A stretch of 64,000 nt of DNA from the IMG/VR virus record IMGVR_UViG_2925939204_000001. One strand, given 5' to 3'. Shown in pieces: positions 2,805 through 63,579 of this stretch. The notes under the pieces were generated by a model that saw only the letters and a program-made list of their open reading frames with translations, was not told the DNA's origin and searched no databases. The stretch's first letter is position 1; each line of letters opens with the position of its first letter. Position numbers and translations under genes: made by a program. Origin of the DNA: a virus. Its lineage: Duplodnaviria; Heunggongvirae; Uroviricota; Caudoviricetes.

Positions 2805-3990
2805 TTTCCTGAAAAACCAGGACGGGCGCTATATCACTGACGGCCTGTCCTCTAAGGACTTCACGCGTTTATTCGAGCTTATCAGGAAAGAACAAACCCG
2901 TAAGCGCCGACAAGCTCACCGGACGCTGACGCCAGGTAGACTGAGGAACAAATCCGCCGAAGATATTCTCAAGTTAGGGAAGAAAAAAGGCGGCACGTTC
3001 TTCACGCGAGACGACCTGAAAGGTTTCGAAAAGCTACGGAGTAAAACGCGCGAAAAATATGACAGCAAGACGGCTGGCATCACATACGCCCAGCTGGTGG
3101 CATCCAGCCAGGCAATCGATATTAAGCGTGCAAATAACGCCGTGGATGACGGATCTGGTATCAAAAGAGCTACACCCGTATCTCTTCGCCACAACGTGAT
3201 TAATATCCGCGTAGAAGCATCGGATATATCCGTCCACCAGCACCATATCGTCCGGATACGCTTTGAAGAATGGGATCAGATGGTCGATAACATCGCAGAA
3301 GACGATAAATCAGCTCTGAAAATCACTAAATCACTGTGCGCCGGGCGGGTGTCTTTCGATTGTGACTGTGGTCGTCATCAATACTGGTATCGTTACATCG
3401 CTACTGCGGGTAACTTTGCCCTGGCCCCGCCAAAAGAATACGCCTATCCAAAAGTTCGCAACCCGAAGCTGCAAGGCGTCGCCTGTAAACACGTGATCCA
3501 CTCAATGACGCGGTTACAGTCCGCCAGTTGGCAAATGAGTATTGCTCGTGCGCTACAAAAGGCTGCAACGCAAATTGCATTTGGTGACGATCGCCGCCGT
3601 ACAACCAAACACTTCTCAAAAGAAGACGAGAAGGAGTTTAATCGCAATCGTAGCAGTAAAACGAACGTTGAAGCCGCCAAACGCGAATGGAGGCTCTATC
3701 AGAAGCGCCAGGCAGCTTTAAGTACAAAACTGGCAAAGGACAACGGCAAGATCGACAAACTACGTGACCAATTGACCAAGGCCAGAAAGTTGTCAGATGC
3801 ACAGAAAAAACGGGCGGCAGCAAAAGAAGCGGCCTTGCAACGTGAGAAACAGAAAAACAAGGAGCTTCAGCAACGCCTTGCCGATCAGTTCGCACTGAAG
3901 AAGCAGGCGTTCATTGATGCGCTTGTCATGGCTGGAACACCACCAGCACAAGCTGAAAAAATGTTCATGGAGTATGTAAAAAAAGCATAA
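2797..3990 (+). CDS. SWIM-type zinc-finger protein with a highly charged coiled-coil C-terminus
   Basis: CxCx(n)CxH pattern FDCDCGRHQYW...GVACKHVIH; K/R/E-rich C-terminal 120 aa. Confidence 0.5.
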   Translation: MPDFLKNQDGRYITDGLSSKDFTRLFELIRKEQTRKRRQAHRTLTPGRLRNKSAEDILKLGKKKGGTFFTRDDLKGFEKLRSKTREKYDSKTAGITYAQLVASSQAIDIKRANNAVDDGSGIKRATPVSLRHNVINIRVEASDISVHQHHIVRIRFEEWDQMVDNIAEDDKSALKITKSLCAGRVSFDCDCGRHQYWYRYIATAGNFALAPPKEYAYPKVRNPKLQGVACKHVIHSMTRLQSASWQMSIARALQKAATQIAFGDDRRRTTKHFSKEDEKEFNRNRSSKTNVEAAKREWRLYQKRQAALSTKLAKDNGKIDKLRDQLTKARKLSDAQKKRAAAKEAALQREKQKNKELQQRLADQFALKKQAFIDALVMAGTPPAQAEKMFMEYVKKA

Positions 3991-3997
3991 ACCACAC

Positions 3998-4034
3998 ATA
4001 GCCTAGCTGCCTAGGCTAGGCTTTCATCTTTTTG
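3998..4034. terminator. hairpin AGCCTAG-ctgc-CTAGGCT followed by a T-tract, between convergent genes
   Basis: Inverted repeat at 4000-4017 then ...tttcatctttttg. Confidence 0.45.
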
Positions 4035-4752
4035 AAAAATCAATTTCCGTTTTATCAAATAAATTTGAAATATCAGCAACCAATTTATTAAAATCATGAT
4101 CGCCATTATAAAGCGAAGTCTTCTTTATTGCCATTACAAAATCATATAACTTTTCTGGGGAGTCAATACCAACCCCTCTACTTTTAAAAAGCTCAATGAT
4201 AACTCCAACATCATCATATAATAACTTTATTGCCGCCATAATCTCTTTTTGCTGCCTAAGCAATCTCTCAAGTTCATTTTTATTTTCATCCATAATTCTT
4301 TTGTTGAATTGTGTATCATTAATACTTTTTATTATTTCAGCCTCTTTTATTTGCAACGCCTTTCTTTTATTTTGATCCATGTCAGCATCCAAATACCTTA
4401 TCTCTGTGTATATTTTACTTGTTAGCTTTGATACGCAAAGAGTGACAATCGGAGCTGCAATTGATGCAATAATTCCAAAAATAAATGGCAAGAAAAAATG
4501 ATAAAACCAAGGAGACAAAACGCCTTCATAAACTAGAGGAATCTTACCTCCAACAAATGTTACAGATAAAGTATATAGGATATCATCCTTTGACTTCATC
4601 AATATTAGTATATCTTTCCAATTAATAATTAGAAAAGAAATTAATATATATGCAAACACTTTATTAAAAAGCTTGTCTTTTATGGCATCTCCAAAAGATA
4701 CTTTGATTAGATCATTTTCAGTCAATTTTTCTGTTGATGAATCTGTATTCAT
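4024..4752 (-). CDS. AT-rich membrane protein (two predicted TM helices) with cytoplasmic coiled-coil; candidate abortive-infection/exclusion effector
   Basis: Strongly AT-rich coding region versus neighbours; hydrophobic segments VFAYILISFLIINW and WFYHFFLPFIFGIIASIAAPIVTLCV; K/E-rich heptad C-terminus. Confidence 0.5.
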   Translation of the reverse strand: MNTDSSTEKLTENDLIKVSFGDAIKDKLFNKVFAYILISFLIINWKDILILMKSKDDILYTLSVTFVGGKIPLVYEGVLSPWFYHFFLPFIFGIIASIAAPIVTLCVSKLTSKIYTEIRYLDADMDQNKRKALQIKEAEIIKSINDTQFNKRIMDENKNELERLLRQQKEIMAAIKLLYDDVGVIIELFKSRGVGIDSPEKLYDFVMAIKKTSLYNGDHDFNKLVADISNLFDKTEIDFSKR

Positions 4753-4814
4753 ATAAACTACCGTGATTTCTAATATCTATTTTATGAAAATAGCTGTCAT
4801 CCAGACCGCCAAAC

Positions 4815-5174
4815 TCAAATACCAACCAAGCTTTCAAGAGGAATGCCAAACTGGGAATGTAAACGGCGAATCATAGGTAACGTCAAATTTCGTGTCCCAT
4901 TTAGCACTTCGTAAACACGATTTGACTTACCAATCGCCGGCTCCAGATCCTTCACGGTCAGCCCTTGCTGTTCCATACGGAATTTAATGGCCTCAATAGG
5001 TGATGGTGGCTCAATTGGGTAATGTTTTTTCTCGTACTCCTCAATGAGAAGACTCATAACCTCAAAGAAATCACCTTCCGGAGTATTCATTTCCGGTTCG
5101 TTATCGAACATCGGTTCGACCGCACGCAGTGCGGCCTCATAATCTTGTTCTGTACGGATAGGTTTAATGTTCAT
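4815..5174 (-). CDS. HigA-like HTH regulator/antitoxin (N-terminal domain plus C-terminal HTH, YgjM/COG5499 architecture), no cognate toxin adjacent
   Basis: C-terminal segment GLTVKDLEPAIGKSNRVYEVLNGTRNLTLPMIRRLHSQFGIPLESL matches the HigA C-terminal HTH pattern. Confidence 0.55.
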   Translation of the reverse strand: MNIKPIRTEQDYEAALRAVEPMFDNEPEMNTPEGDFFEVMSLLIEEYEKKHYPIEPPSPIEAIKFRMEQQGLTVKDLEPAIGKSNRVYEVLNGTRNLTLPMIRRLHSQFGIPLESLVGI

Positions 5175-5186
5175 TAATTACAAAGG

Positions 5187-5220
5187 AAAGCCCACTTGCT
5201 AAGTGGGCTTTTTGTATGTG
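5187..5220. terminator. palindromic hairpin AAAGCCCACTT-gcta-AGTGGGCTTT separating higBA from the downstream HTH gene
   Basis: Perfect 10-bp inverted repeat flanked by U-rich sequence on both strands. Confidence 0.5.
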
Positions 5221-5230
5221 TTTTACTATA

Positions 5231-5569
5231 TCAGGCTGCTTTTTTATTCAGGTTCCGCTGAGAAATAAATTTTTCAGCAGTATTGATACGACTTAACTCT
5301 TCCTGGACGCGCATATCATTTTCGACTTCCCACAGATCTACTGCGGTCTGAAGATTAATCCAAAAATCTACAGAAGTATCGAATGCTTTTGCCAGGCGAT
5401 ATGCCATATCCATCGTTAGCTTACGATTGTTATTAACAAGAGCGCTTACGGTGTTACGATGAACATGAAGTATTTCTGCTAACTCGTTGATCTTCAGCTC
5501 TAACGGCTCCAGGTATTCGTACAGCAGGATATCACCTACGGTCGTCGGTTTTCTGGTTGCCTGTTTCAT
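5231..5569 (-). CDS. higA: HigA-family antitoxin (XRE HTH, COG3093-type)
   Basis: HTH region LAEILHVHRNTVSALVNNNRKLTMDMAYRLAKAFDTSVDFWINLQ; directly downstream of the HigB-like toxin. Confidence 0.75.
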   Translation of the reverse strand: MKQATRKPTTVGDILLYEYLEPLELKINELAEILHVHRNTVSALVNNNRKLTMDMAYRLAKAFDTSVDFWINLQTAVDLWEVENDMRVQEELSRINTAEKFISQRNLNKKAA

Positions 5570-5639
5570 TTTTTGCCCTTACTAGCGTGCGTATTAAGTG
5601 GACTCTGGTCAGAACCCGGTCCGTAACCGGGTATCTGTT

Positions 5640-5942
5640 TTAGTATTTGTGAGGGTCGAGATACAAGTCCTCGGCCTTTCCGTTAACCCACTTAAAAATT
5701 AACCTATATTGCTTATTCACCCTTACTGATGAATAGCCATTTAGCTTCCCTGACAGTTCCTCATACCGATTACCTGGTGGTGATCTTAAATCCTTACAGG
5801 TAGTTGCGGCATTGATAATGTCCAACTTCCGTGACAATGTCATATGAATATCAGGAGGTATCTTTCTATGTGGTGTTGAAAATTCAAAAAAATCATCAAG
5901 CCACGCATCCCTGAAATCCTTTATGTTAATTTTTTTGGTCAT
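5640..5942 (-). CDS. higB: HigB toxin (RelE/ParE fold, plasmid maintenance killer family)
   Basis: C-terminal pattern NRYEELSGKLNGYSSVRVNKQYRLIFKWVNGKAEDLYLDPHKY typical of HigB; toxin-upstream-of-antitoxin order. Confidence 0.8.
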   Translation of the reverse strand: MTKKINIKDFRDAWLDDFFEFSTPHRKIPPDIHMTLSRKLDIINAATTCKDLRSPPGNRYEELSGKLNGYSSVRVNKQYRLIFKWVNGKAEDLYLDPHKY

Positions 5943-6104
5943 TAGTCATTTGATCCTCCGTGATGATTACCGAATGCCATAACTATAGCGCACCGTTGCA
6001 CTGTGCGCAAGTGCATTTTATGAATTCCCCCTCCTTCATCCAAAATCACAATCTCCCGAAAATCTTCCTTTCGATACCTGACAGATCGACCTTTGAGGAT
6101 GCTT

Positions 6105-6896
6105 ATGGGCCGTTTTGACGAATGGTTTGCTGACGATGCAAACCTGGCAAGTAAGGAGTCAGAACATGACAGCACGCAGAGAGAAACGCCAGCGCCGATT
6201 GAAGCGAATGCAGGAGGCGCGCCGGAACATGGCAATACCGGTTCGGATTCATTCAGCATTCTGGAAGAGCAACCCGCCGCCAAAGCTGATAGCCATGATA
6301 ATTTTGCTGATAGCAACGGTGGCCTTACTCCGGATGCTGGCGAATCAGATATAGCCATACTTCCATCTTCCCTGGCTGGCAGAGAACCGACTCCACAGTT
6401 AAAAGCACGCTATAACGGGCATAAAGCCTTTAACGACCAAATCCGCGCAGACTGGATGCTGATTATTGAATCCAGCCCAGACGCGTTTCAGGCTCTCTTA
6501 TATCGACCAGATGTTGGCACATATGGGGTAGTCAGCGACGAAACAGGAGAAGAGTCATTCACTGAACTGGATAACAACCAACGCGAACTGACTTACCAGG
6601 AACCTGAAATCGTTTATGTGCTGGATAACCCTGACGGGCGTGACTCTTTCCATGCGATTGACGCAGACGGTGAGCAGGATGGCTTAACCGATGATGTTCT
6701 GATTCTGCGTATTGCAGCAAATAACGTCCCCGTCGGCTCAATTCTTGAATGGAATGAAGAGATGGTAAACGGCGTAGCGCGCCGCTGGTGGTACGTGCAC
6801 CGTATTTTTAGCTACGGCACACAGCATGTTGGTTCGCTTTACTACTGCATACCTGCCAGGAATTTTGATACGACTCAAAACGGAGTGATCGAATGA
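6105..6896 (+). CDS. phage protein with acidic low-complexity N-terminal half
   Basis: ORF track (6093); ATG at 6105 has better GAGG spacing. Confidence 0.5.
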   Translation: MGRFDEWFADDANLASKESEHDSTQRETPAPIEANAGGAPEHGNTGSDSFSILEEQPAAKADSHDNFADSNGGLTPDAGESDIAILPSSLAGREPTPQLKARYNGHKAFNDQIRADWMLIIESSPDAFQALLYRPDVGTYGVVSDETGEESFTELDNNQRELTYQEPEIVYVLDNPDGRDSFHAIDADGEQDGLTDDVLILRIAANNVPVGSILEWNEEMVNGVARRWWYVHRIFSYGTQHVGSLYYCIPARNFDTTQNGVIE

Positions 6897-7660
6897 CTTC
6901 AAATAAAACCCTCCTGGCGCGAACAGGTGAATGGCAAACCTCACGTACAGGAAAATTCCAGACCACGGGCTTTGAAAACGTGGATAACGCGTTTGCGACG
7001 CTAATCAGCAACATTTTTTCTGATATCTTACTGGTGGCCCCCGCGCCGGAAGAAAAACGCTTTGCGTCATTCCTGAATCGTCCACCAGCAGAGCGTGTCT
7101 ATGTGGCCCGTTTCGACAATGCGATCGAGTTTCTTAAAGCAGTTCGTCGCGCAAATGCCGGGCAAGGGAGAAAACCTGAAAACCAGAACATTAACCGGGA
7201 TGCTCTCCCCCTGGTCAATATCTCACGCACTATGGATATCAATTATATCAACGATGATCAGCAGATTGACCGCAAAAAAGTAGCCAGTTTTTGCGAACCG
7301 GATACCGGAATGCCTTTAGCAGAACTGGAATACACCCAGGCCATTCTGACGTATGACGTTACGTTAATGGCAACTGATAAAGCGACCATGAGTCTGATGT
7401 GTAATTCGCTGGGCGCACGGCTTCGCCTGATGACAGGTACACAATTTGAAGCAACCACTCACCTTGTTCGTGTCCCGGTCCCGCTGATTTGCTCGATACA
7501 GGATGCCAAAGAAGTCGGCTTTACGGATGTTTCAGCACCAATTGGAGAAGAGCGTATTTATGCCACACAAGCGCCGATAAGTGTGATTGCAGACGTGATC
7601 ACAGCATGGGAGTTGGACGCAAAACGTATTATTACCGAAACCTCGATATCTATGGGGTGA
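6893..7660 (+). CDS. phage structural protein (baseplate candidate)
   Basis: ORF track; overlapping-stop coupling within the 6105-9294 operon. Confidence 0.4.
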   Translation: MTSNKTLLARTGEWQTSRTGKFQTTGFENVDNAFATLISNIFSDILLVAPAPEEKRFASFLNRPPAERVYVARFDNAIEFLKAVRRANAGQGRKPENQNINRDALPLVNISRTMDINYINDDQQIDRKKVASFCEPDTGMPLAELEYTQAILTYDVTLMATDKATMSLMCNSLGARLRLMTGTQFEATTHLVRVPVPLICSIQDAKEVGFTDVSAPIGEERIYATQAPISVIADVITAWELDAKRIITETSISMG

Positions 7661-7663
7661 TAA

Positions 7664-8644
7664 GTGGCCCAGGAGTTACAACAATATTTTCTACAGTCAG
7701 TGCTCATTAACGATAACAAAGTGCCACGAGACTGGATTTTTACCGCAGTATATGTAGAAAAAACCAGCCTCAAAGCCCCTTTGCTAAAACTGGAAATTCA
7801 TGACGCTACCGGCACCGTAATTGATGACTGGAAAGCCAAATACGGTGCATCGCTGGTGGCTGAAATGGGCGATCCAAACGGTAATGCAGGCACTTTTAAA
7901 ACAGATTTCTTTGTTACGTCTGCAATGCTGGCTGGTGATGTTGTTACCGTTATTGCTGTCAGTGAAGACGTGCGCAGGTTTAAGATCCCCTCCCCGCGCA
8001 CAAATTTACATACCAACAAAACACCAGACGCTATATTCAAGGCATATTCCGGCAAACTTAAAATTACCAGCAGCGTGCTAAAACGCGCAGTTACATATCA
8101 TCTGAATGCCGGTGACAAACCGTCAAAAATGCTTTCGGAGATAGCGCGAGACAAAGGTGCATTGTGTTGGGTATGTCGGGGGGAATTTAACTTTTACACC
8201 CTGGCTGATCTGATGAAGCAAACGCCATCATTTACCTACGAGGGGAATAACCCTAAAGCAGAATACACTTTGTCCAAAATGCGCCTACTCCAACAGGAAC
8301 ATGCGACAACAGCAAAGAATCAATATCGTTTTGTTGGGTATTCCATGACCGATGGCTACGTCGAATATGGCGATAGCTCACTCCCAGTGCGTTATATATC
8401 CGACTCTGATATGGAAACTCTTCGCAATATGCAGCTGTCTCTCGTCCCCAAAATGGATATAGAAGTCGCAGGCAATCCTGATATAAAACCGGGGATGGTA
8501 ATAGAGATTATCGTATACCGCTATGACCAGGAAAACCGCATTGATGAATCAATGCCCCGTAAGCTGATAGTAAAAAATGTTGCGCACTTTGAGGACCGCG
8601 TAGGCTACACAACACGAATGATATTGGGAGTGCCTAACAAATGA
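7664..8644 (+). CDS. phage structural protein (baseplate candidate)
   Basis: ORF track; operon context. Confidence 0.4.
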   Translation: MAQELQQYFLQSVLINDNKVPRDWIFTAVYVEKTSLKAPLLKLEIHDATGTVIDDWKAKYGASLVAEMGDPNGNAGTFKTDFFVTSAMLAGDVVTVIAVSEDVRRFKIPSPRTNLHTNKTPDAIFKAYSGKLKITSSVLKRAVTYHLNAGDKPSKMLSEIARDKGALCWVCRGEFNFYTLADLMKQTPSFTYEGNNPKAEYTLSKMRLLQQEHATTAKNQYRFVGYSMTDGYVEYGDSSLPVRYISDSDMETLRNMQLSLVPKMDIEVAGNPDIKPGMVIEIIVYRYDQENRIDESMPRKLIVKNVAHFEDRVGYTTRMILGVPNK

Positions 8645-9303: not shown

Positions 9304-9347
9304 CCATTTGTGTTAGATAATTAATATGTATTTTCTAACACAAATGG
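9304..9347. promoter_or_regulatory. perfect 14-bp inverted repeat CCATTTGTGTTAGA-N16-TCTAACACAAATGG just upstream of the rdgC-like gene; member of a dispersed TGTGTTAGAAAA motif family
   Basis: Read directly; same core recurs at seven or more other intergenic sites. Confidence 0.5.
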
Positions 9348-9353
9348 TGAGAC

Positions 9354-10259
9354 ATGAGATCAGTCGCTTTCAAAAATATCTTCATCTATCGTCTTTCACG
9401 CGAAGTTAGCTGGGATACTGCAGAAGTAAATGCAGCCCTTAGCAAGTTTGTGTTTACCCCATGCGGTTCTCAGGATATGGCTAAAGCTGGTTGGACCTCC
9501 GTTCTTGGTGACAACCTCACCCATGAATACCAGGGTTTTCTTCTGATACAGCATAAACGAGAGGAAAAAATCCTACCTTCTCAAGTGCTCAAAGAAGAGT
9601 TACAGAAAAAAATCCTGACACTTGAAGAAGAGCAAGACAGAAAGCTGAAGAAGACCGAAAAAGATTCGCTGAAGGATGAAGTGCTTCACTCTCTTCTTCC
9701 TCGTGCTTTCACGAGAAAATCACTCGCCAAAATCCTGATCGACCGCAGCAACCATCTGGTATTCGTTGAGGCAAGCAGCGCCAAAAAGGCAGAGGACCAG
9801 CTGGCTTTATTGCGAAAATCGCTCGGCAGCCTGCCTGTCATTCCATTCACACCACGCGAACCGCTGGAAATTACAATGACCGAGTGGTTTAAAAACGGCT
9901 TCCCTGCCGGATTTACAGCAGGTGAAGACGCCACATTAAAGGGTCTGCTCGATAATGGTGGTGCCGTTCGCTGCAACAAAGTTGATCTACAGTCCGACGA
10001 GATTATGTCTCACATTGAGGCGGGGAAAGTAGCTACGACCGTTGCAATTAACTGGATGGACCGCGCGTCGTTCAGAGTCAACGATGATATGAGTATCAAA
10101 GCCCTGACATTCTGTGATGATCTCTATGACCAGAACGACGATATCGACCGGGAGGATGTAGCACAACGATTTGATGCTGATTTCGTGCTCTTTACGGGCG
10201 AATTATCTGCACTGTTTAACGCGCTGGTGGAGGCCATTGGCGGTGAAGCAGAACGTTAA
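9354..10259 (+). CDS. rdgC: recombination-associated protein RdgC homologue (P1 HrdC-like)
   Basis: Near colinear similarity to E. coli RdgC as recalled ([34 protein letters not shown], [15 protein letters not shown]). Confidence 0.85.
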
Positions 10260-12399
10260 CCTTCGATATGGTTCAGTTTGCAGTGGAATTGAAGCCGCGA
10301 GCATTGCCTGGGAACCGTTGGGTATGCGTCCGGCGTGGTTTGCTGAAATTGAGCCTTTTCCATCTGCCGTTCTTGCGCACCGCTGGCCTCATATCGCCAA
10401 CCTTGGCGATATGACAAAACTTGCCAAAAAAGTCCTGGCTGGGGAAATCGAATCCCCTGATGTGCTCGTCGGGGGAACACCTTGTCAGGCATTCAGTATC
10501 GCGGGATTACGTGGTGGGCTTGATGATGAGCGCGGCGCGCTAACTTTGAAGTATGTGGAGCTTGCAAATGCAATTGACGACAAACGGTCTGAGTCCTTCC
10601 TCAAACCGACAGTTATCGTCTGGGAAAATGTCCCAGGAGTCCTGTCATCGGCAGATAACGCCTTCGGATGTTTCCTTGCCGGATTGGCTGGAGAAGATGC
10701 ACCATTTGAACCAGGTGATCGACCTGAATCAGGAAAAAGTAACGCGTTCTGGCGGTGGGATGGCAAAACCGGTTGCCATGCTCCAAAGTGGCCGCAGTGT
10801 GGTTGTATTTATGGACCGCAGCGAAAGGTGGCCTGGAGAATACTTGATGCCCAATACTTCGGAGTGGCACAACGACGCCGACGCGTGTTTGTTGTCGCAA
10901 GTGCTCGAACAGACCTCGATCCCGCAACGGTACTTTTTGAGTTCGAAGGCGTGCGCCGGGATATTGCGCCGAGCAGAGGCGAGGGGAAGGAAGTTGCCGG
11001 AAATGTTGGAAATGGCATTAAAAGCGGGAGCCATTGGGATAACCCTGTAAATCCTCACCCGACACTTGCCCGATCGCACAATACCGGCGGGACGGGTGCA
11101 AGCAACCAGGAGATTTTTTCACAGCGCGGAAGTGGGCTTGTCGGTGCTTACCGGATGGTAGCATTTGGTGAGTATGCGGATGATGAGGCGGCTTCCACGG
11201 TCAAGGCCAGAGATTTTAAGGATGCAACCGACCTGGCTGTTTTTGACAGTGCGAACGTCGGAGTGGCAGTACGTCGCTTAACGCCTGTCGAGTGCGAACG
11301 CCTGCAGGGCTTTCCTGACGGGCACACGTTGATCCCTACGGAAAAGCGTAAAAAAGTTTCTTCAGATGAACTGGCATACCTTCGCAATCACTATCCAGAT
11401 TTAAGCGAAGAAGAGGCCGCGATGCTTGCAGCTGACGGACCGCGTTACAAAGCGATCGGCAACAGCATGGCAGTTCCTGTTATGCAATGGATAGGGTGTC
11501 GCATTCTTGCGACCGTAGCGGATAAACAGCAAAAAACAATAAATACCATTACCTACACAAGAAAACTCCGGACTCCGGATGAATATGAACGCCCAATATT
11601 CAAATGGGTAGGCGGTAAATTCTCAGAGTTGCCTACAGTGCTTGAGCATCTACCACACGGCAAGCGGTTAATAGAACCATTCGTTGGTGGCGGTTCCGTA
11701 TTTACGAATGCAGGATTTCGCCACAACCTGCTTAATGATATTAACGGTGACCTGATTAACTTCTATCAGACATTGCAGCGAGAGGGACATTCGCTCGTCA
11801 CGCTGGCATATAGTTTTTTCAAAAATTACAACAACGCTGACGCTTACCTCGAAGTGCGCGAGGCATTTAACAGAGGAAAGTATGACCAGCTACATCATGC
11901 TGCCGCCTTTTTGTACCTTAATCGGCACTGTTTTAATGGCGTAACGCGGTACAACCAAAATGGCGAGTTCAACGTGGGGTATGGCAAATACAAAGCGCCC
12001 TACTTCCCACATGCAGAGATGGAGGCATTTTTGGCTGATGACGTACTCAAAAACACGTCCTTTGTATCAGGTGACTTTGCTGGCGTCATCGAGGCGGCTG
12101 GTGAAGGCGATGTGATTTTTTGCGATCCGCCGTATGAACCGCTGCCGGATACAGAAGGGTTTACCAGTTATTCAGGAAATAGCTTCCGTTTCGACGAACA
12201 GAAACGGCTGGTATCTCTATTGGTGGAAGCCCACCAGCGCGGCGCTAAGGTAGTGATAACAAATAGTGGTGCGCCAAACATCCGTGAACTATATGAACGA
12301 AACGGGTTTAAAGTACATCATATGGCAGCCAGACGGTCGGTGTCCTGCAAGGCGTCAACACGTGTAGTTGCTAACGATATAATTGCAATAATGAAGTAA
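10243..12399 (+). CDS. bifunctional DNA methyltransferase: N-terminal C5-cytosine MTase fused to C-terminal Dam-type N6-adenine MTase (P1 Dmt-like)
   Basis: C5 motifs [30 protein letters not shown]; Dam motifs KWVGGK and DPPY; GTG at 10243 after GGAGG is the likely start (ORF opens at 10171). Confidence 0.85.
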
Positions 12400-18780: not shown

Positions 18781-18940
18781 TTACTCCCCTTGTTTAGTGC
18801 CAGAGGACACGCCAGTGCTGTTAAACAAGTATCCGACATACGCTGAACAGTTATTCAGCACGATCGACGAATGCAACCAACGAAACGCACTGAATAACCA
18901 AAGAAACAGGGAGATTTGGGAAGGGAAGGGGCGGCAGTGA
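18614..18940 (+). CDS. o-spanin-like outer-membrane lipoprotein, overlapping the i-spanin in another frame
   Basis: Lipobox LTLSGC after a signal sequence; overlapped Rz/Rz1-type architecture. Confidence 0.45.
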   Translation: MKSLALKMRYAVLGLTMCVCLMTLSGCSGNGQKPSTSVPVKITVEATSKPQANLIDYSPCLVPEDTPVLLNKYPTYAEQLFSTIDECNQRNALNNQRNREIWEGKGRQ

Positions 18941-18966
18941 GCTTCACAAAATCTATATAGCTATTT

Positions 18967-19000
18967 TATGTTAGAAAAATAATTTGAATTTTCGAACATA
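18967..19000. promoter_or_regulatory. operator-like inverted repeat TATGTTAGAAAA-N10-TTTTCGAACATA upstream of the immunity module 1 promoter
   Basis: Read directly; member of the TGTGTTAGAAAA family. Confidence 0.45.
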
Positions 19001-19031
19001 AACAATAAAATAAATCATCAAAAATTTGATG

Positions 19032-19060
19032 TTGATCTTCCATGTTTTCAGGCTTATATT
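19032..19060 (+). promoter_or_regulatory. sigma70-type promoter of immunity module 1 (TTGATC, 17-bp spacer, TATATT)
   Basis: Hexamers and spacing read directly; identical promoter at 52682-52710. Confidence 0.55.
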
Positions 19061-19139
19061 CACGCCGTTGCAGCAAATTCTGCGACCGGGTTTAGCAGCC
19101 TGAATGTACATGCGGACAACCGCAGATATCCGATATTGC

Positions 19140-19258
19140 GGTATTTTTGTGTCCGTAAAACCATGTTACGCCCGAATTATGGTGGGGCGTGATGGGGAGG
19201 CTTCGGCCTGCTGGTTTCATGTACGCCAGTCTGCTAACCCCGTCACGTCCTGCCACCC
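19140..19258 (+). ncRNA. c4: c4-like antisense regulatory RNA of an immI-like operon (module 1)
   Basis: RNA elements b' (catgtac, 19218-19224) and a' (ctgctaac, 19231-19238) are complementary to a1/b1 (19090-19112) and to a2/b2 (19259-19296) overlapping the icd RBS, as in the P1 c4 system. Confidence 0.55.
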
Positions 19259-19307
19259 GTTTAGCAGCGGGTAGCAGGTTGTTAAACCTGTACATGAGGC
19301 CGTAACT

Positions 19308-19523
19308 ATGGTTAATGCCAATCCTTGCGCACGCCCGGAATTTATCTGGCGCTTTTATTCCTGCACAAAACACACCTACATCAGCGTAATGGCAGCTACT
19401 GAGGCTGAAGCGCGTTCATTTCTTCCTACAGATCCATGCATTTTTGCCGCTCGCTTTAAACTCGATGCTCTGGACGTTTTGACCTACTGGAACCGCCCAA
19501 TGAACTGCGTGGAGGTGCATTAA
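19308..19523 (+). CDS. icd: Icd-like small protein (host cell division inhibitor family)
   Basis: N-terminal RPEFIWRF motif; position between c4-like RNA and ant; RBS overlapped by the b2 antisense target. Confidence 0.6.
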   Translation: MVNANPCARPEFIWRFYSCTKHTYISVMAATEAEARSFLPTDPCIFAARFKLDALDVLTYWNRPMNCVEVH

Positions 19524-20521
19524 TGGACGCAGTAACTATCAATAACAAACCATTCCCGACTCTCGAATATAAAAATCAGCGTGTAGTGACCTTTGAGATG
19601 ATTGATGAGGTGCACGAACGTGTTGATGGGGCAGCCAGGGGAACATTTAAGCGAAACAGAAGTCGTTTCATTGAAGGGGTGGATACTTATGTTATTGATT
19701 ATTCTGAAAAGGGCTTTTTAAGCCCATTTGGAATTGATGTCCCCCCGCGCGGTTTGCGCGTGTTCACTGAGTCCGGCTATCTGATGATTGTTAAGTCATT
19801 CAATGACGATCTGGCCTGGCAAGTGCAACGTGAGCTGGTAAACAGCTATTTTCGTATTAAGCAATTAATACCGGAGCACTCACCGCTAAAATCAAAAGCC
19901 GAAATCCTGGCCGAAATGGCGCAAATGCATCTTGAGCATGAACGCCGGATCAACGCCGTAAATGCCCAGGTAGCCGAGGTATCAGCACAAGTATCGATGG
20001 TCGCTGAAACACTCGAGCAAATCAAGAAAGGCAATATTCCGGAAGGCTACATTGGCTACCGCCAGCTGGCGGCGAAATGTGGCCTGACTGAAGCAAAATG
20101 TCGCAACCTGGTCAACGCTTACCGGATTCCCACCGATACGCATGAGTTTTTAACTCCCGATGGTTTGCTTGCGCGACGCTCCATTGTGGCCCTGGCCCCC
20201 TTCCGGAAAGCCTTTAAGCAGGTGATGTCGGAGGCAGAACCACGCAATAAACGCTGGTATCATCCAAAGATGGGGATGTTTCAGGCAATCCACCATCCTG
20301 TGCCTGAAAGCCCAAAGGATAATCTGTCACTACATACCGTCAGAGAGAAGATCAGGACTGGATACGCAACAGTGTGTCGTCGTTCTTCCTGGCCTGAAGG
20401 TATATGGGTGTGGCCCGAAGGTGGATCACGAAAGCACTGGCGCACTATCCGGGACGGGAAAATCCATGCTATTGATTTAGCGCCAGAGGATATTGTTGCT
20501 ACGGACTGGATTGTTAGTTAA
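19523..20521 (+). CDS. ant: antirepressor Ant with C-terminal DUF2829 (Tad2-like) domain
   Basis: TAATG-coupled to icd; central region identical to the module 2 Ant (IKKGNIPEGYIGYRQLAAKCGLTEAKCRNLVNAYRIPTDTHEFLTP); last ~65 aa homologous to the free-standing ORF 53885..54085. Confidence 0.7.
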   Translation: MDAVTINNKPFPTLEYKNQRVVTFEMIDEVHERVDGAARGTFKRNRSRFIEGVDTYVIDYSEKGFLSPFGIDVPPRGLRVFTESGYLMIVKSFNDDLAWQVQRELVNSYFRIKQLIPEHSPLKSKAEILAEMAQMHLEHERRINAVNAQVAEVSAQVSMVAETLEQIKKGNIPEGYIGYRQLAAKCGLTEAKCRNLVNAYRIPTDTHEFLTPDGLLARRSIVALAPFRKAFKQVMSEAEPRNKRWYHPKMGMFQAIHHPVPESPKDNLSLHTVREKIRTGYATVCRRSSWPEGIWVWPEGGSRKHWRTIRDGKIHAIDLAPEDIVATDWIVS

Positions 20522-20529
20522 TTACTGTT

Positions 20530-20556
20530 GCCCCGGCCTGTCCGGGGCTTTCGTGA
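20530..20556 (+). terminator. rho-independent terminator GCCCCGGCC-tgt-CCGGGGC then T-rich
   Basis: Read directly after the ant stop; near-identical terminator at 54089-54116. Confidence 0.55.
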
Positions 20557-20961
20557 CTAAAAATCTGTTCGCTGTCGCCATGCGTTTTTTAACTCAGGAA
20601 TATCCGCCATTTCAATTAACTTGCGAAGTCCAGCACTGACTTTCCCATTGCCAACCATAGCAAGCCAATCTCTTACTGCTTTCGGCATGTAGAGCGTTGC
20701 AGTTACCGGCTCTTCAACCCTGGCAGGACATCCGCATACAGGCCATTTAACTGATTCCATAACTTCGGATGCCGGGGTGAGGGCGGGGACATTGAGTATA
20801 TCTCTACCAGAAAACTGGATAACGATCCGTTCAGCGAGCGAGAGTATCTCACTTTCGGCAAGAATTGATGCCAACTGCGCCTCAACAAGAAAGCGACTTG
20901 TTGTGTTCAGAGAGTGGCTCTTAGCGCCATTTTTATACGAAACAAAGATTCGATACGCCAT
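20557..20961 (-). CDS. hypothetical protein, possible regulator
   Basis: ORF track; operator-like motif TGTGTTAGAAAA (20975-20986) lies in its upstream region. Confidence 0.4.
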   Translation of the reverse strand: MAYRIFVSYKNGAKSHSLNTTSRFLVEAQLASILAESEILSLAERIVIQFSGRDILNVPALTPASEVMESVKWPVCGCPARVEEPVTATLYMPKAVRDWLAMVGNGKVSAGLRKLIEMADIPELKNAWRQRTDF

Positions 20962-51380: not shown

Positions 51381-51486
51381 TCGCCTCGTTAAGTTAAATT
51401 TCTAACATAGTGTATTTATATACACTGTTGATCCTGGTGGATGGGATCGAGTAGGATCGCGGTCACTGCTCCGGTAGCGACTGCCA

Positions 51487-52595: not shown

Positions 52596-52630
52596 TGTGT
52601 TAGAAAATTAATTTGCTGTTTCTAAATCGG
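52596..52630. promoter_or_regulatory. operator-like site TGTGTTAGAAAA-N-TTTCTAA upstream of the immunity module 2 promoter
   Basis: Read directly. Confidence 0.45.
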
Positions 52631-52681
52631 AATGTATGATCTGCATCATCGACTGAAGTCATCCATTGCTGAAATTTTTAG

Positions 52682-52710
52682 TTGATCTTCCATGTTTTCA
52701 GGCTTATATT
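52682..52710 (+). promoter_or_regulatory. sigma70-type promoter of immunity module 2 (TTGATC, 17-bp spacer, TATATT)
   Basis: Identical to the module 1 promoter. Confidence 0.55.
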
Positions 52711-52789
52711 CATGCCGTCGTAGCAAATTCTGCGACCAGGTTTGACAGCCTGAATGTTAGTGCGGACAACCGCAGATTTCCGATATTGC

Positions 52790-52907
52790 GGTATTTTTGT
52801 GTCCGTAAACCGCGTTACGCCCGAATTATGGTGGGGCGTGATGGGGAGGCTTCGGCCTGCTGGTTTCACTAACGCCAGTCTGTCAACCCTGTCACGTCCT
52901 GCCACCT
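52790..52907 (+). ncRNA. c4: c4-like antisense regulatory RNA, module 2, with altered specificity
   Basis: b' cactaac (52867-52873) and a' ctgtcaac (52880-52887) complementary to a1/b1 (52740-52762) and a2/b2 (52908-52945); compensatory changes relative to module 1. Confidence 0.55.
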
Positions 52908-52956
52908 GTTTGACAGCGGGTAGCAGGTTGTTAAACCTGTTAGTGAGGCCGTAACT

Positions 52957-53181
52957 ATGGTTAATGCCAATCCTTGCTCACGTCCAGAATTCATCTGGCG
53001 TTTCCACTCCCTGCAAAAACACTGCGATCACTTCGCAATTGCCGCAACCGAAAAAGAAGCCCGTTCTCTGATCCCTGATCAGTATGGTGTTCTTACTGGT
53101 CGTTTCTCTACTTCCCCACAACCAAACACTAATCCCTGGTATCGCAATATTACCAATCCCGGAATTGCGGAGGCACACTGA
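52957..53181 (+). CDS. icd: Icd-like small protein, module 2
   Basis: MVNANPCSRPEFIWRF N-terminus; paralogue of 19308..19523. Confidence 0.6.
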   Translation: MVNANPCSRPEFIWRFHSLQKHCDHFAIAATEKEARSLIPDQYGVLTGRFSTSPQPNTNPWYRNITNPGIAEAH

Positions 53182-53888
53182 TGGAAATCTGCATTCTTGA
53201 AAAGCCATCAATGACCAGCATTGAGATCGCTGAGCTGGTGGGAAGTCGCCCTGATAACGTTAAACGCACTATTGAACGCTTGAGTAAATCAGGTGTTATT
53301 CCACTTCCTCCAATGGAGGTTTCCGAAAATATCAATAACTTAGGATTTAAAGTTAAAAATTCACACTACGTCTTCGAAGGCGAGCAAGGCAAGCGTGACA
53401 GTATCATTGTCGTTGCGCAGCTTTCTCCCGAATTTACCGCCCGGCTGGTGGACCGCTGGCGCGAACTGGAAGAACAAGCACGCCAGCCGTTGACCGAAAT
53501 AGAGATGATCGCCGCAATGGCTGCAAATGCAGTTCAGCAGCAAAAGCGGCTTCATGTTGTTGAGTCAAAGGTTAGCCAGGTGGTAGAAACCGTTGAGCAA
53601 ATCAAGAAAGGCAATATGCCGGAAGGCTACATTGGCTACCGCCAGCTGGCGGCGAAATGTGGCCTGACTGAAGCCAAATGCCGTAACCTTGTCAACGCTT
53701 ACCGGATTCCCACCGATACGCATGAGTTTTTAACTCCAGAGGGGGTATTGTCGCGTCGTTCCATCGTGGCCTTATCTCCCTTCATGAATGCTTTTAACCG
53801 GATGATGTCGGAGGCTGAACACCGAGGAAAACGCTGGTATCACCCCAAAATGGGGCAATTCCAGGTGATCGGTTGGGGAGGTGAGTGA
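53181..53888 (+). CDS. ant: antirepressor Ant with Rha-like N-terminal domain and shared Ant core
   Basis: N-terminal SIEIAELVGSRPDNVKRTIERL (Rha-like HTH); central region identical to module 1 Ant. Confidence 0.7.
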   Translation: MEICILEKPSMTSIEIAELVGSRPDNVKRTIERLSKSGVIPLPPMEVSENINNLGFKVKNSHYVFEGEQGKRDSIIVVAQLSPEFTARLVDRWRELEEQARQPLTEIEMIAAMAANAVQQQKRLHVVESKVSQVVETVEQIKKGNMPEGYIGYRQLAAKCGLTEAKCRNLVNAYRIPTDTHEFLTPEGVLSRRSIVALSPFMNAFNRMMSEAEHRGKRWYHPKMGQFQVIGWGGE

Positions 53889-54085
53889 TGGACATCATGC
53901 AGGCGGTAAAAAAAATCAGGGAAGGACAGGCTGAAGTGTGCCGCCGTAAAGCATGGAGTATTGATGTATGGGCCTGGCCTGATAATTACTCTACTACCGG
54001 ATGGTTTTGTATTAATGGACTCAAGATCCGGGAAGTTTATTTATCGACGGCTGATATAGTCGGTAATGATTGGATCGTGACTTGA
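53885..54085 (+). CDS. DUF2829-like small protein (candidate Tad2-type anti-defence sponge), coupled to ant
   Basis: 66 aa with N-terminal AxxKIReGxxVCRRKAW and C-terminal ADIVGNDWIV pattern; homologous to the C-terminal 65 aa of the module 1 Ant. Confidence 0.45.
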   Translation: MMDIMQAVKKIREGQAEVCRRKAWSIDVWAWPDNYSTTGWFCINGLKIREVYLSTADIVGNDWIVT

Positions 54086-54088
54086 AGC

Positions 54089-54116
54089 GTGATGCCCCGG
54101 CCTGGCCGGGGCTTTT
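54089..54116 (+). terminator. rho-independent terminator GCCCCGGCC-tgg-CCGGGGC then TTTTTTC
   Basis: Read directly. Confidence 0.6.
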
Positions 54117-54117
54117 T

Positions 54118-54603
54118 TCATGCCTCATTAGTTGAGGTTGCTGCGTCTCCGACTGGTAACAGAGCGGTATTGCGTGGTTCGCCAGCAGGCCAGCGATAGC
54201 CAGACACTCTTGATGTTGGGAATGCGCGAATATTAACCGCATCCCCCTGGTTCCCACCCAGGACAAGCAGATCGCCATTGGCGCGGCGTCCGACAACGAA
54301 GCCTACGTGCCCACCGCCTACGCGGGTAAATACAACGATACATCCGTATGCCGGTGTATCTAATTTCTCGCCCCAATCCAGATAGGATTTTGCCGACTCA
54401 AATCTTGTTGAGCGGATGCCTACACGTTCCAGCATTGCACCGACAAATGCTGCGCACCACGGCGTTTCATCGTCTTTAATTCCGCCGCGCTTGATGTCGC
54501 GCCAGAACTGAACGATTTCAGGGTTGTGTTTAGCGCCTTTTATTTCAGTCAGGCCAATGTGCTTACGGGCTTCAATTAGCCAGCGAGGTTCAATGTTTGC
54601 CAT
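54118..54603 (-). CDS. putative cell-wall peptidase (NlpC/P60-CHAP-like phage protein)
   Basis: Candidate catalytic Cys in TPWCAAFVGAM; strong RBS; family assignment from memory. Confidence 0.45.
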   Translation of the reverse strand: MANIEPRWLIEARKHIGLTEIKGAKHNPEIVQFWRDIKRGGIKDDETPWCAAFVGAMLERVGIRSTRFESAKSYLDWGEKLDTPAYGCIVVFTRVGGGHVGFVVGRRANGDLLVLGGNQGDAVNIRAFPTSRVSGYRWPAGEPRNTALLPVGDAATSTNEA

Positions 54604-62969: not shown

Positions 62970-63170
62970 TTGCGTTTACTTAACGTGGCAGAACTTATCC
63001 CTGCAGGAACTAATGCTATCGCTCGTCGTCGCTCATGGCAGCAGGCTCTATGTATTGAGATCTCGAAACGTATCAATGGAAGTTTTGAAGCTCGCAATAT
63101 TGTTACTGGCGATAAGGTTCACATAACCCCGGAAAGTGCAAGCGCTGATGATTGGGAGTTTGTACATTGA
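62970..63170 (+). CDS. hypothetical small protein
   Basis: ORF track. Confidence 0.4.
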   Translation: MRLLNVAELIPAGTNAIARRRSWQQALCIEISKRINGSFEARNIVTGDKVHITPESASADDWEFVH

Positions 63171-63500: not shown

Positions 63501-63579
63501 TTTATTGCATCTTCCGATACTGTCATCAAACTAATAAAATATGTTAGAAAACTAATTTAACAAAGTAACGGGAATAGCA

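What the first reader, a model, noticed from the sequence alone, without database searches (positions are those of the whole stretch)
52680..54085. Second immunity module with Rha-type antirepressor (module 2)
Paralogue of module 1 with compensatory a/b element changes. Its Ant has a Rha-like N-terminal HTH domain instead of the module 1 N-terminus but shares a 100% identical central block of about 35 aa. The DUF2829-like segment that is fused to Ant in module 1 is here a separate TGATG-coupled ORF. This suggests modular domain shuffling of antirepressors under separate antisense control.
Basis: partly seen in the sequence, partly recalled or inferred. Interest (0 to 1): 0.75.

Follow-up and report, generated by a model that had tools for sequence, protein, structure and literature searches.

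The report
P1-type antisense-controlled antirepressor operon, second copy
This is a real, intact copy of the phage P1 "immI" switch (a small antisense RNA that keeps a lysis-promoting operon silent) in a D6-like plasmid prophage. It is already annotated in phage D6; its cargo is not the P1 antirepressor but an uncharacterised double winged-helix protein plus a tiny protein with the fold of the anti-Thoeris sponge Tad2.

Summary
The window is a D6-like phage-plasmid (97.4% identical to phage D6, 100% to an E. coli plasmid).

Positions 52598-54120 form one operon:
- a promoter;
- the a1/b1 leader;
- a C4 antisense RNA gene;
- a2/b2 targets over the icd ribosome site;
- an Icd-like gene;
- a 235-aa "Ant2";
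- a TGATG-coupled 65-aa ORF;
- a terminator.

The C4 RNA is 100% identical to phage P1 C4. Module 1 differs from it by concerted changes in all three copies of the a and b elements. Among 126 related c4 genes, 14 a/b haplotypes occur and every located target matches its own C4.

Ant2 has no similarity to the proven P1 antirepressor. It is a Rha-like winged helix, a coiled coil and a second winged helix; the 40-aa block identical in both modules lies in that second domain (pN/pS 0.03). The 65-aa ORF has a minimal Tad2/DUF2829 fold, but key gcADPR-binding residues are missing.

Natural chimeras confirm domain shuffling. Module 2 is the conserved D6 module; "module 1" is a 1.64-kb cassette that phage D6 lacks at that site.

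The RNA control is solid. Antirepressor activity is inferred from gene position only.

The parts
52598..52615 (+). Putative C1-type operator, TGTTAGAAAATTAATTTG
   Evidence: The motif occurs 5 times in the window with up to 3 mismatches, against 0.22 expected. One copy sits at the same place upstream of module 1 (18969-18986) and another lies upstream of the repL-like gene. In P1 the C1 operator Oc4/Op51 occupies this position. The function is inferred.
52613..52640 (+). Inferred upstream promoter overlapping the operator: TTGCTG, 16 nt, TATGAT (the counterpart of P1 P2c4/P51a)
   Evidence: Read directly from the sequence. It was not reported by the consensus scan. Module 1 has TTGAAT-16-TAAAAT at 18984-19011. 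Inference only.
52682..52710 (+). Sigma-70 promoter TTGATC-17-TATATT, positional homologue of P1 P1c4/P51b
   Evidence: Consensus scan. It aligns with the annotated P1 promoter and is conserved in both modules.
52704..52763 (+). Leader carrying the a1 (52742-48) and b1 (52756-63) elements
   Evidence: Rfam RF03163 c4-a1b1, 54.4 bits vs 46.7. The element coordinates are transferred from the P1 annotation through a 237-nt exact match.
52830..52906 (+). C4 antisense RNA gene (77 nt mature form), loops b' CACTAAC and a' CTGTCAA
   Evidence: Rfam RF01695, 68.8 bits. It is 100% identical to the annotated P1 C4.
52910..52946 (+). Targets a2 (52910-16) and b2 (52939-46); b2 runs into the icd Shine-Dalgarno sequence GAGG
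   Evidence: Identical to the annotated P1 a2/b2 sites and complementary to the C4 loops.
52957..53181 (+). icd-like gene (74 aa)
   Evidence: NCBIfam NF033153 phage_ICD_like, 40 bits vs 25. phrog_1426. pN/pS 0.22 over 19 alleles.
53181..53888 (+). 'Ant2', 235 aa: Rha-like winged HTH (about residues 1-100), a long helix (106-142) and a second winged-helix domain (about 147-230)
   Evidence: Pfam HTH_24 and sub-threshold Phage_pRha. phrog_63 and phrog_1726 'anti-repressor'. AF2 model with the C-terminal domain at pLDDT 74-87. pN/pS 0.26. The ATG overlaps the icd stop (TGATG).
53619..53738 (+). 40-aa block identical to Ant1 (PEGYIGYRQLAAKCGLTEAKCRNLVNAYRIPTDTHEFLTP): the HTH and first wing strand of the second winged helix
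   Evidence: pN/pS is 0.03 at pS 0.28 among 16 alleles.
53888..54085 (+). 65-aa ORF with a minimal Tad2/DUF2829-like fold, TGATG-coupled to ant2, with its own GGAGG 5 nt upstream
54094..54120 (+). Intrinsic terminator (8 G-C pairs followed by T6), placed so it could also end the convergent gene at 54118-54603 (-)
   Evidence: It is homologous to the terminator after Ant1, at about 20526-20551.
18932..20572 (+). Module 1 cassette: operator, promoters, a1b1, C4, a2b2, icd (19308-19523), Ant1 (19523-20521) and terminator
   Evidence: It replaces 481 bp (orf53) of phage D6.

Best explanation
Positions 52598-54120 are a complete operon of the phage P1 immI type, in a D6-like plasmid prophage.

How it is controlled:
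- One promoter region transcribes a leader (a1/b1), the C4 RNA, and then icd, ant2 and a 65-aa gene.
- C4 RNA is cut out of this transcript (established P1 knowledge).
- Its two loops (a', b') pair with a2 and b2, and b2 covers the icd ribosome-binding site.
- Blocking icd translation also silences the two downstream genes, because each is coupled to the one before it by an overlapping stop/start (TGATG).
- In the lysogen the operon is therefore off. It turns on after infection, or when transcription outruns C4.

Specificity:
- Module 2 has exactly the P1 specificity.
- Module 1 has a different one, so the two operons should be controlled independently.
- Each resident C4 should also silence incoming relatives that carry the same allele.

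Products:
- An Icd-like division inhibitor.
- A double winged-helix Rha-family protein in the antirepressor slot. I infer that it antagonises the phage's C1-type repressor or otherwise promotes lytic growth.
- A small Tad2-fold protein of unknown ligand, which works with or extends that protein, since it is fused to it in module 1.

Shown: the RNA elements, their covariation, the gene structure, the folds and the chimeras. Inferred: operator control, antirepressor activity, and any ligand binding.
For: RNA control:
- Rfam C4 and c4-a1b1 hits lie above their gathering scores.
- C4 is 100% identical to P1 C4, and a 237-nt exact match with P1 runs from a1 into icd.
- P1's own annotation gives the roles of these elements.
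- The three copies of a and b change together between modules 1 and 2, P1, P7 and D6.
- In 126 c4 genes from IMG/VR loci and reference phages there are 14 a/b haplotypes. In 119 of them at least one target pair could be located, and all match their own C4 loops.
- Modules on the same contig always differ (9 contigs).

Operon structure:
- Promoter and terminator bracket the operon.
- An operator-like motif is enriched 5 vs 0.22 expected and sits upstream of both modules.

Genes:
- The Icd family hit is above its cutoff.
- Ant2 and icd are under purifying selection (pN/pS 0.26 and 0.22).
- The module is intact in D6 and covered at 80% or more in 109 plasmids.
- The small ORF's top structural matches, by two methods, are Tad2 proteins.
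- The fusion/split polymorphism and the chimeras link the small ORF functionally to Ant.
Against: - No experiment exists for any D6-type module.
- Ant2 and Ant1 have no detectable similarity to P1 Ant1/2 or KilA and lack the ANT/KilAC domain.
- Ant2 looks like a DNA-binding protein with two winged helices. Its weak Foldseek hits are transcription factors such as PF0095, DnaD-N and MarR.
- In L073 a Rha-MID protein co-occurs with a P1-type Ant in one operon.
- The Ant2 model is poor overall (pLDDT 60.6).
- The small ORF shows pN/pS 0.78, though on very few changes (pS 0.044).
- The 'co-resident alleles always differ' result would arise by chance about 9% of the time (my estimate from the allele frequencies).
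Confidence: 0.6

Rival explanations
1. Ant2 is not a protein-binding antirepressor. It is a sequence-specific DNA-binding regulator of the Rha/Roi type that switches lytic or host genes directly. The c4 module only times its expression.
For: - It has two winged-helix domains (Pfam HTH_24; AF2 model).
- Its weak Foldseek hits are two-winged-helix and MarR-type transcription factors.
- NCBI names its relatives 'Rha family transcriptional regulator' or 'DNA-binding protein'.
- It has no homology to P1 Ant.
- In L073 it co-occurs with a bona fide P1-type Ant in one operon.
- The HTH block is almost invariant (pN/pS 0.03), as expected for a domain that reads a fixed DNA site or partner.
Against: - It occupies the exact slot of ant, translationally coupled to icd.
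- Winged helices also mediate protein contacts.
- PHROG families with the same architecture are annotated as anti-repressors.
- No target DNA site was identified.
Confidence: 0.27
2. The operon is mainly an early-expressed counter-defence and host-takeover cassette. The 65-aa Tad2-fold protein, and the same domain fused to Ant1, sequesters a host immune signalling nucleotide; Icd arrests division.
For: - PF11195 is the best or only Pfam hit for three family members.
- Residues equivalent to Tad2 W25, S76 and D79 are conserved.
- A c4-controlled operon is expressed right after infection in P1 (established knowledge), which is the right time for an anti-defence protein.
Against: - The ligand-stacking W73 is V or I here, N26 is S or P, and T78 is A or E.
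- The beta2-beta3 loop with helix alpha2, which forms the Tad2 dimer interface, is missing: the protein is 65 aa against 89.
- All Pfam scores are below the cutoff.
- The family is tiny, with 7 hits among 1.84 billion representatives.
- pN/pS is 0.78.
Confidence: 0.1
3. Module 2 is a decaying or redundant duplicate with no present function.
For: - The small ORF has a high pN/pS.
- A few truncated or frameshifted variants exist (P0002 and P0003; short ORFs).
Against: - The module is intact in D6 and covered at 80% or more in 109 plasmids.
- Purifying selection acts on icd and ant2.
- The antisense elements covary perfectly.
- Promoter, Shine-Dalgarno sequences and terminator are intact.
Confidence: 0.03

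Closest known systems
Phage P1/P7 immI operon (c4-icd-ant1/2)
   Same: - Same order of elements: C1-operator region, tandem promoters, a1/b1, C4 RNA, a2/b2 over the icd ribosome site, then icd overlapping the next gene.
- C4 and all a/b elements of module 2 are identical to those of P1.
   Different: - The gene after icd is unrelated to Ant1/Ant2: no ANT/KilAC domain and no in-frame Ant2-type restart was examined.
- A third coupled gene follows.
- repL lies upstream rather than downstream.
- No kilA is present.
Phage D6 orf19-orf18-orf17 (NC_050154, 19789-20917) and D6-like plasmids such as pYU39_89
   Same: - The same module at 97.4% identity, annotated Icd / putative anti-repressor 'similar to HK97 Roi' / hypothetical.
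[quoted passage not shown]
   Different: - The D6 copy has a different b allele (ACTTAC, with matching changes in b1, b' and b2), whereas the window has the P1 allele GTTAGT.
- None of these copies has been studied functionally, as far as the held literature shows.
Tad2 / DUF2829 (SPO1 gp34.65, ModTad2, HgmTad2 = AcrIIA7)
   Same: - The fold has the same order of elements: an N-terminal helix, a five-stranded antiparallel sheet and a short helix before the last strand.
- The 'G..v.R..W' and 'D....DW.iv' motifs are shared.
   Different: - 65 aa against 85-104 aa; it lacks the beta2-beta3 insertion.
- W73, N26 and T78 of the ligand pocket are not conserved.
- All scores are below the Pfam threshold.
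- It occurs fused to an antirepressor-type protein and under antisense control, which the Tad2 papers I read do not describe.
Rha / Roi family phage regulators (Pfam PF09669; P22 Rha, HK97/HK022 Roi)
   Same: An N-terminal winged HTH matches Phage_pRha across the full profile (1-91 of 91). Close relatives score above the cutoff (P0004 36.9 bits).
   Different: - This sequence scores 26.4 bits against a cutoff of 29.9.
- The C-terminal half is a different, Pfam-less winged-helix domain (phrog_6610) rather than the ANT/KilAC domain that P1 Ant and KilA carry at their C-termini.
Domain-shuffled phage regulators of the KilA-N / Bro-N / ORF6N / ANT type (Iyer et al. 2002, recalled from my own knowledge)
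   Same: N-terminal DNA-binding modules (ORF6N, Rha) are combined freely with different C-terminal modules. The survey found ORF6N joined either to the P1-type ANT C-terminus or to the MID+Tad2-like C-terminus.
   Different: Here the shuffling takes place inside one regulatory cassette, and a DUF2829-fold domain is one of the shuffled pieces.

Membership tests
P1/P7-type immI operon | C4 antisense RNA gene with the conserved fold | tested here: met
   Rfam RF01695, 68.8 bits vs gathering score 45. 77/77 identical to P1 C4.
P1/P7-type immI operon | Targets a1/b1 in the leader and a2/b2 at the icd ribosome site, complementary to the C4 loops a'/b' | tested here: met
   RF03163, 54.4 bits vs 46.7. 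The elements are identical to the annotated P1 sites. They covary across 126 c4 genes with no mismatch.
P1/P7-type immI operon | icd gene translationally coupled to the downstream gene | tested here: met
   NF033153, 40 bits vs 25. The icd stop and the ant2 start overlap as TGATG.
P1/P7-type immI operon | Downstream gene is homologous to Ant1/Ant2 (ANT/KilAC domain PF03374) | tested here: not met
   BLASTP finds nothing better than E=0.38. Pfam finds ANT in P1 Ant1 and KilA but not in Ant2 or Ant1 of the window.
P1/P7-type immI operon | C1 repressor operator controlling an upstream promoter | tested here: inconclusive
   An 18-nt motif is shared by both modules and enriched 5 vs 0.22 expected. 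It differs from the P1 operator sequence, and no repressor binding was tested.
P1/P7-type immI operon | The product binds and inactivates the C1 repressor | not testable with these tools
   Needs genetics or biochemistry.
Rha family (Pfam PF09669) | Domain score at or above the Pfam gathering score | tested here: inconclusive
   26.4 bits vs 29.9 for this protein, with full profile coverage. 36.9 bits for relative P0004. PF09669 is precomputed for many proteins that are 88-99% identical.
Tad2 / DUF2829 (Pfam PF11195) | Domain score at or above the Pfam gathering score (25 bits) | tested here: not met
   14.5 bits for the small ORF. Relatives score 23.9 and 14.0 bits. No sequence-level PDB hit.
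Tad2 / DUF2829 (Pfam PF11195) | Tad2 fold (alpha1, beta1-beta5, alpha3) | tested here: met
Tad2 / DUF2829 (Pfam PF11195) | gcADPR pocket residues W25, N26, W73, S76, T78, D79 (SPO1 numbering) | tested here: not met
   Only W23 (=W25), S53 (=S76) and D56 (=D79) are kept. The others change: W73 to V50, N26 to S24, T78 to A55.
Tad2 / DUF2829 (Pfam PF11195) | Binds gcADPR and inhibits Thoeris | not testable with these tools
   Needs binding and infection assays.
ORF6N / KilA-N-like domain (Ant1 of module 1) | Pfam PF10543 at or above the gathering score | tested here: met
   46.4 bits vs 27.8, residues 14-92.

The most novel reading that the evidence does not exclude
The Tad2-fold domain is a small-molecule sensor attached to the lysis-lysogeny switch. 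It is fused to the antirepressor-slot protein in module 1 and in D6 orf82, and split off as a coupled ORF in module 2. By binding a host immune signalling nucleotide, or another metabolite, it would do one of two things. It could protect the phage early in infection, or it could modulate the winged-helix partner so that the prophage induces when the host's abortive-infection signalling fires. That would be a direct link between bacterial immune signalling and prophage induction.
Probability: 0.07. Interest if true: 0.8.

Novelty: new member of a known kind. Interest (0 to 1): 0.36.

Why it matters
The module itself is ordinary for this phage group. It is a P1-type antisense immunity operon that is already annotated in phage D6 and present in hundreds of E. 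coli and Salmonella phage-plasmids.

Three details are worth recording.

1. This copy carries the exact P1 C4 RNA. The plasmid and phage P1 should therefore silence each other's immI operons, a simple and testable case of cross-immunity between distant relatives.

2. The a/b elements behave as a combinatorial set of alleles (2 a alleles by at least 8 b alleles). They recombine freely with the downstream cargo, and co-resident modules always differ. This extends the classic P1/P7 heteroimmunity pair to a multi-allele system.

3. The cargo is an uncharacterised double winged-helix protein joined, by fusion or by translational coupling, to a minimal Tad2-fold domain. That association is not described in the Tad2 literature I could search.

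None of this changes how such switches are thought to work unless the Tad2-fold domain turns out to bind a signalling molecule.

Tried and rejected
- I first scanned viral and metagenome contigs with a C4 pattern that had a 7-nt b' loop instead of 6. It did reveal a rarer C4 class with a 7-nt loop (L008-L012). The corrected pattern gave 120 loci.
- The D6 genome paper (Gilcrease & Casjens 2018) is not held, so I could not check what it says about the two modules.
- Sequence searches of the PDB with the small ORF, its family profile and P0005 found no Tad2 chain.
- The word-indexed homologue search found 3 relatives of the small ORF. The exhaustive profile search found 7, one of which (P0008, a PKD-repeat protein) is spurious.
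- Whole-molecule RNAduplex energies did not separate cognate from non-cognate pairs usefully, so I relied on element-level complementarity.
- afdb50 was not available.
- Foldseek on the Ant2 model gave only weak hits (best E=3e-3) on a low-confidence model. I use it only for the winged-helix call.
- I rejected recent gene conversion as the sole cause of the 40-aa identity. The block has 5 synonymous differences between modules, and pS is 0.28 with pN/pS 0.03 among orthologues, which points to strong constraint.
- A third ORF (62970-63170) with Tad2-like end motifs did not pass testing: hhalign probability 11.7% and no Pfam hit.
Full report
**What the window is**

The module 2 region (52600-54120) is 97.4% identical over its full length to Escherichia phage D6. 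There it is annotated as orf19 (Icd-like), orf18 ('putative anti-repressor, similar to HK97 Roi') and orf17 (hypothetical). It is 100% identical to a 216-kb E. coli plasmid, NZ_CP021720.1. In the plasmid collection 576 records match part of it and 109 carry at least 80% of it, nearly all from Escherichia or Salmonella. The flanking genes are those of a P1/D6-type phage-plasmid: portal, pro and repL homologues upstream, and a CHAP/TIGR02594 hydrolase and a 2303-aa DarB-like protein downstream. [quoted passage not shown] I could not read the D6 genome paper.

**Observation check**

- **RNA elements.** Rfam finds two C4 antisense RNA genes (52824-52909 and 19175-19260) and two c4-a1b1 leaders (52704-52756 and 19054-19106). 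All are above their gathering scores, with E-values near 1e-11.
- **Gene order.** Both modules have an icd-like ORF (74 and 71 aa; NCBIfam phage_ICD_like at 40 and 46.5 bits vs 25). Its stop overlaps the start of the next gene: TGATG in module 2, TAATG in module 1.
- **N-termini.** Ant2 (235 aa) starts with a winged HTH that matches HTH_24. It also matches Phage_pRha over the full profile, but just below threshold (26.4 vs 29.9 bits). Ant1 (332 aa) starts with ORF6N at 46.4 bits.
- **Shared region.** The two proteins share 67% identity over Ant2 105-230 / Ant1 124-256. This includes a 40-aa identical run, Ant2 147-186, with 5 of 120 nucleotide differences.
- **Small ORF.** The 65-aa ORF at 53888-54085 overlaps the ant2 stop (TGATG), has its own GGAGG, and aligns with the last 58 residues of Ant1 at 45% identity, E=8e-17.
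- **Nucleotide homology.** It is confined to four segments: the operator-like motif; promoter through early icd (89%); the central ant block (85%); and the 3' end plus terminator (72.5%).

**The antisense elements**

I aligned P1, P7 and both modules against the annotated P1 record.

| Source | a element | b element |
|---|---|---|
| P1 | TTGACAG | GTTAGTGA |
| Module 2 | TTGACAG | GTTAGTGA |
| P7 | TTAGCAG | GATTGTGA |
| Module 1 | TTAGCAG | GTACATGA |

In each case the same bases appear in a1/b1 and a2/b2, and their reverse complements appear in the C4 loops. The module 2 C4 is 77/77 identical to mature P1 C4. A 237-nt exact match with P1 runs from a1 into icd. Module 1 C4 differs at 6 of 77 positions.

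The D6 copy of module 2 is 97% identical in its flanks but carries yet another b allele, ACTTAC, again changed in all three places.

**Survey of c4 alleles**

I surveyed 126 c4 genes, drawn from 120 IMG/VR loci plus the reference phages.

- They carry 2 a alleles and 8 b alleles, forming 14 combinations.
- In 98 genes both target pairs could be located, and in 21 more one pair could be located.
- Every located target matched its own C4 loops. There was no mismatch.

The sample contains related genomes and was selected by fixed flanking sequence. The counts are therefore not independent events, but concerted change at three sites across many alleles is strong evidence that the pairing is functional.

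Modules 1 and 2 differ at 2 positions in a and 3 in b. P1 and P7 differ at 2 and 2, and that is known to make them heteroimmune (established P1/P7 biology). Independent control of the two operons is therefore the expected outcome.

On nine contigs with two or three modules, the co-resident alleles always differ. From the allele frequencies I estimate this would happen by chance about 9% of the time, so it is only suggestive.

**Operon boundaries**

- A sigma-70-like promoter (TTGATC-17-TATATT, 52682-52710) aligns with the P1 P1c4/P51b promoter. A strong terminator (54094-54112 plus T6) follows the small ORF.
- Upstream of both modules lies the same 18-nt motif, TGTTAGAAAAWTAATTTG. It occurs five times in the window against 0.22 expected, including once upstream of the repL homologue. 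P1 has C1 operators at the corresponding places. I read this as the D6-type C1 operator, overlapping a weak upstream promoter (TTGCTG-16-TATGAT, 52613-52640). That is inference from the sequence.

**The proteins**

- **No homology to the proven antirepressor.** Neither Ant2 nor Ant1 shows any BLASTP similarity to P1 Ant1/2 or KilA. They also lack the ANT/KilAC domain that Pfam finds in both P1 proteins. PHROGs places them in families labelled 'anti-repressor' (phrog_63 at 1.4e-47, phrog_1726), and places the shared C-terminal part in phrog_6610, of unknown function. These names are inherited annotations.
- **Ant2 structure.** An AlphaFold model has low confidence overall (pLDDT 60.6). Residues 140-230 are at 74-87 and form strand-helix-turn-helix-hairpin, i.e. 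a second winged helix, preceded by a long helix at 106-142. The 40-aa identical block is the HTH plus first wing strand. Foldseek gives only weak hits, led by a two-winged-helix archaeal transcription factor.
- **Selection.** Among 16 alleles, Ant2 has pN/pS 0.26. The block has 0.03 at pS 0.28, and the N-terminal domain 0.39. The block's identity therefore reflects strong constraint.

**The small ORF**

- **Family size.** An exhaustive profile search of 1.84 billion representatives returned seven hits. One, P0008, is a spurious PKD-repeat protein.
- **Pfam.** PF11195 (Tad2-like, formerly DUF2829) is the only hit of the window ORF (E=0.053) and of P0005 (E=6.2e-5, 23.9 bits vs 25), and one of two weak hits of P0006 (0.076). 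All three cover nearly the whole profile and all are below threshold.
- **Profile comparison.** hhalign against four solved Tad2 sequences aligns the full length (E=1.1e-4, probability 56%).
- **Pocket residues.** W23, S53 and D56 correspond to the ligand-contacting W25, S76 and D79. However, W73 is V (I in Ant1), N26 is S and T78 is A. The beta2-beta3 insertion that builds the Tad2 dimer is absent.
- **Selection.** pN/pS among close alleles is 0.78, on very few substitutions.
- **Assessment.** I conclude that this is a minimal member of the DUF2829 fold (about 0.8 confidence) and that gcADPR sponge activity is unlikely (about 0.1).

**Shuffling**

Natural recombinants exist.

- P0062 (306 aa) is the Ant2 N-terminal half joined, inside the identical block, to the Ant1 C-terminal half with the fused Tad2-like domain. 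It sits at the module 2 position, but on a low-coverage metagenome contig that could be a chimeric assembly.
- P0004 (313 aa), the architecture of D6 orf82 (also 313 aa), is a different Rha N-terminus with the Ant1-type middle and fused C-terminus. In D6 it lies next to ref, behind a divergent C4 whose leader matches Rfam isrK.
- L021 is a further mosaic.
- Elsewhere ORF6N is combined with the P1-type ANT C-terminus.
- The Rha-MID-plus-65-aa architecture occurs behind at least five different a/b haplotypes. Specificity and cargo therefore recombine independently.
- In L073 a Rha-MID protein is followed by a P1-type Ant in the same operon. This argues against a simple one-for-one replacement of Ant.

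**Which module is the extra one**

Module 2 is the conserved D6 module. The host plasmid gives three matches to the module 2 query. A third, D6-orf82-type module probably lies outside the window.

**Verdict**

The finding is a genuine, intact P1-type immI operon with exact P1 antisense specificity. The mechanism of its RNA control can be stated with high confidence by homology and covariation. What its protein cargo does is open. An antirepressor role is the best guess from position (about 0.5), a DNA-binding regulator is a serious rival, and a sponge role for the Tad2-fold protein is a long shot.

The module is already annotated in a published phage, so it is not new in kind. The useful additions are:
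- identity with P1 C4;
- the multi-allelic a/b system;
- the double winged-helix architecture;
- the Tad2-fold domain that alternates between fused and separate forms.

Noticed in passing
window 9311-9328, 18969-18986, 51390-51407 (-), 52598-52615, 63542-63559: An 18-nt motif, TGTTAGAAAAWTAATTTG, occurs five times against 0.22 expected. Copies lie upstream of both c4 modules, of the repL homologue and of an RdgC-like gene. It is probably the operator of the D6-type C1 repressor.
   Followed up: partly
It replaces 481 bp (orf53) of phage D6 between flanks that are 98-99% identical, so c4-icd-ant units appear to move as cassettes.
   Followed up: yes
L001 4091-4366 (phage D6) vs window 52690-52965: D6's copy of module 2 has a different b allele (ACTTAC, against the window's P1 allele GTTAGT). 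It is changed in b1, b' and b2, although the surrounding DNA is 97% identical.
   Followed up: yes
L073 (IMGVR_UViG_2579778564_000018): One operon carries c4, icd, a 237-aa Rha-MID protein and then a 334-aa P1-type Ant. The two kinds of 'Ant' can therefore coexist behind one C4.
   Followed up: partly
L005 2521-2599 and L134 (D6 orf82-83 region): The D6-type module next to ref has a divergent C4 (71.6 bits). Its leader matches Rfam isrK (59.1 bits) rather than c4-a1b1, which links it to the Salmonella Gifsy-1 isrK locus.
   Followed up: no
L008-L012: There is a rarer C4 class with a 7-nt b' loop (CTAGAAC or CTAGTGC). I found it by accident with a mis-specified search pattern.
   Followed up: no
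window 62970-63170 (+): A 66-aa ORF has end motifs reminiscent of DUF2829 (G..ARRRSW near the N-terminus, ADDWEFV at the C-terminus). The support is weak: hhalign probability 11.7% to the small-ORF family, and no Pfam hit.
   Followed up: partly
window 54118-54603 (-): A CHAP/TIGR02594 peptidoglycan hydrolase gene is convergent with the operon, and the terminator at 54094-54120 lies directly at its 3' end.
   Followed up: no
window 10171-12399 (+): A 742-aa ORF fuses a C5-cytosine methylase domain with a Dam-type N6-adenine methylase domain, preceded by an RdgC-like gene (9354-10259).
   Followed up: no
L099/L100 (IMGVR_UViG_651053023_000001, 3144-7764): Two c4 modules with different b alleles (GTACAT and ACTTAC) lie back to back within about 2 kb on a 103-kb contig. 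Another contig (2713896909_000009) carries three modules.
   Followed up: partly
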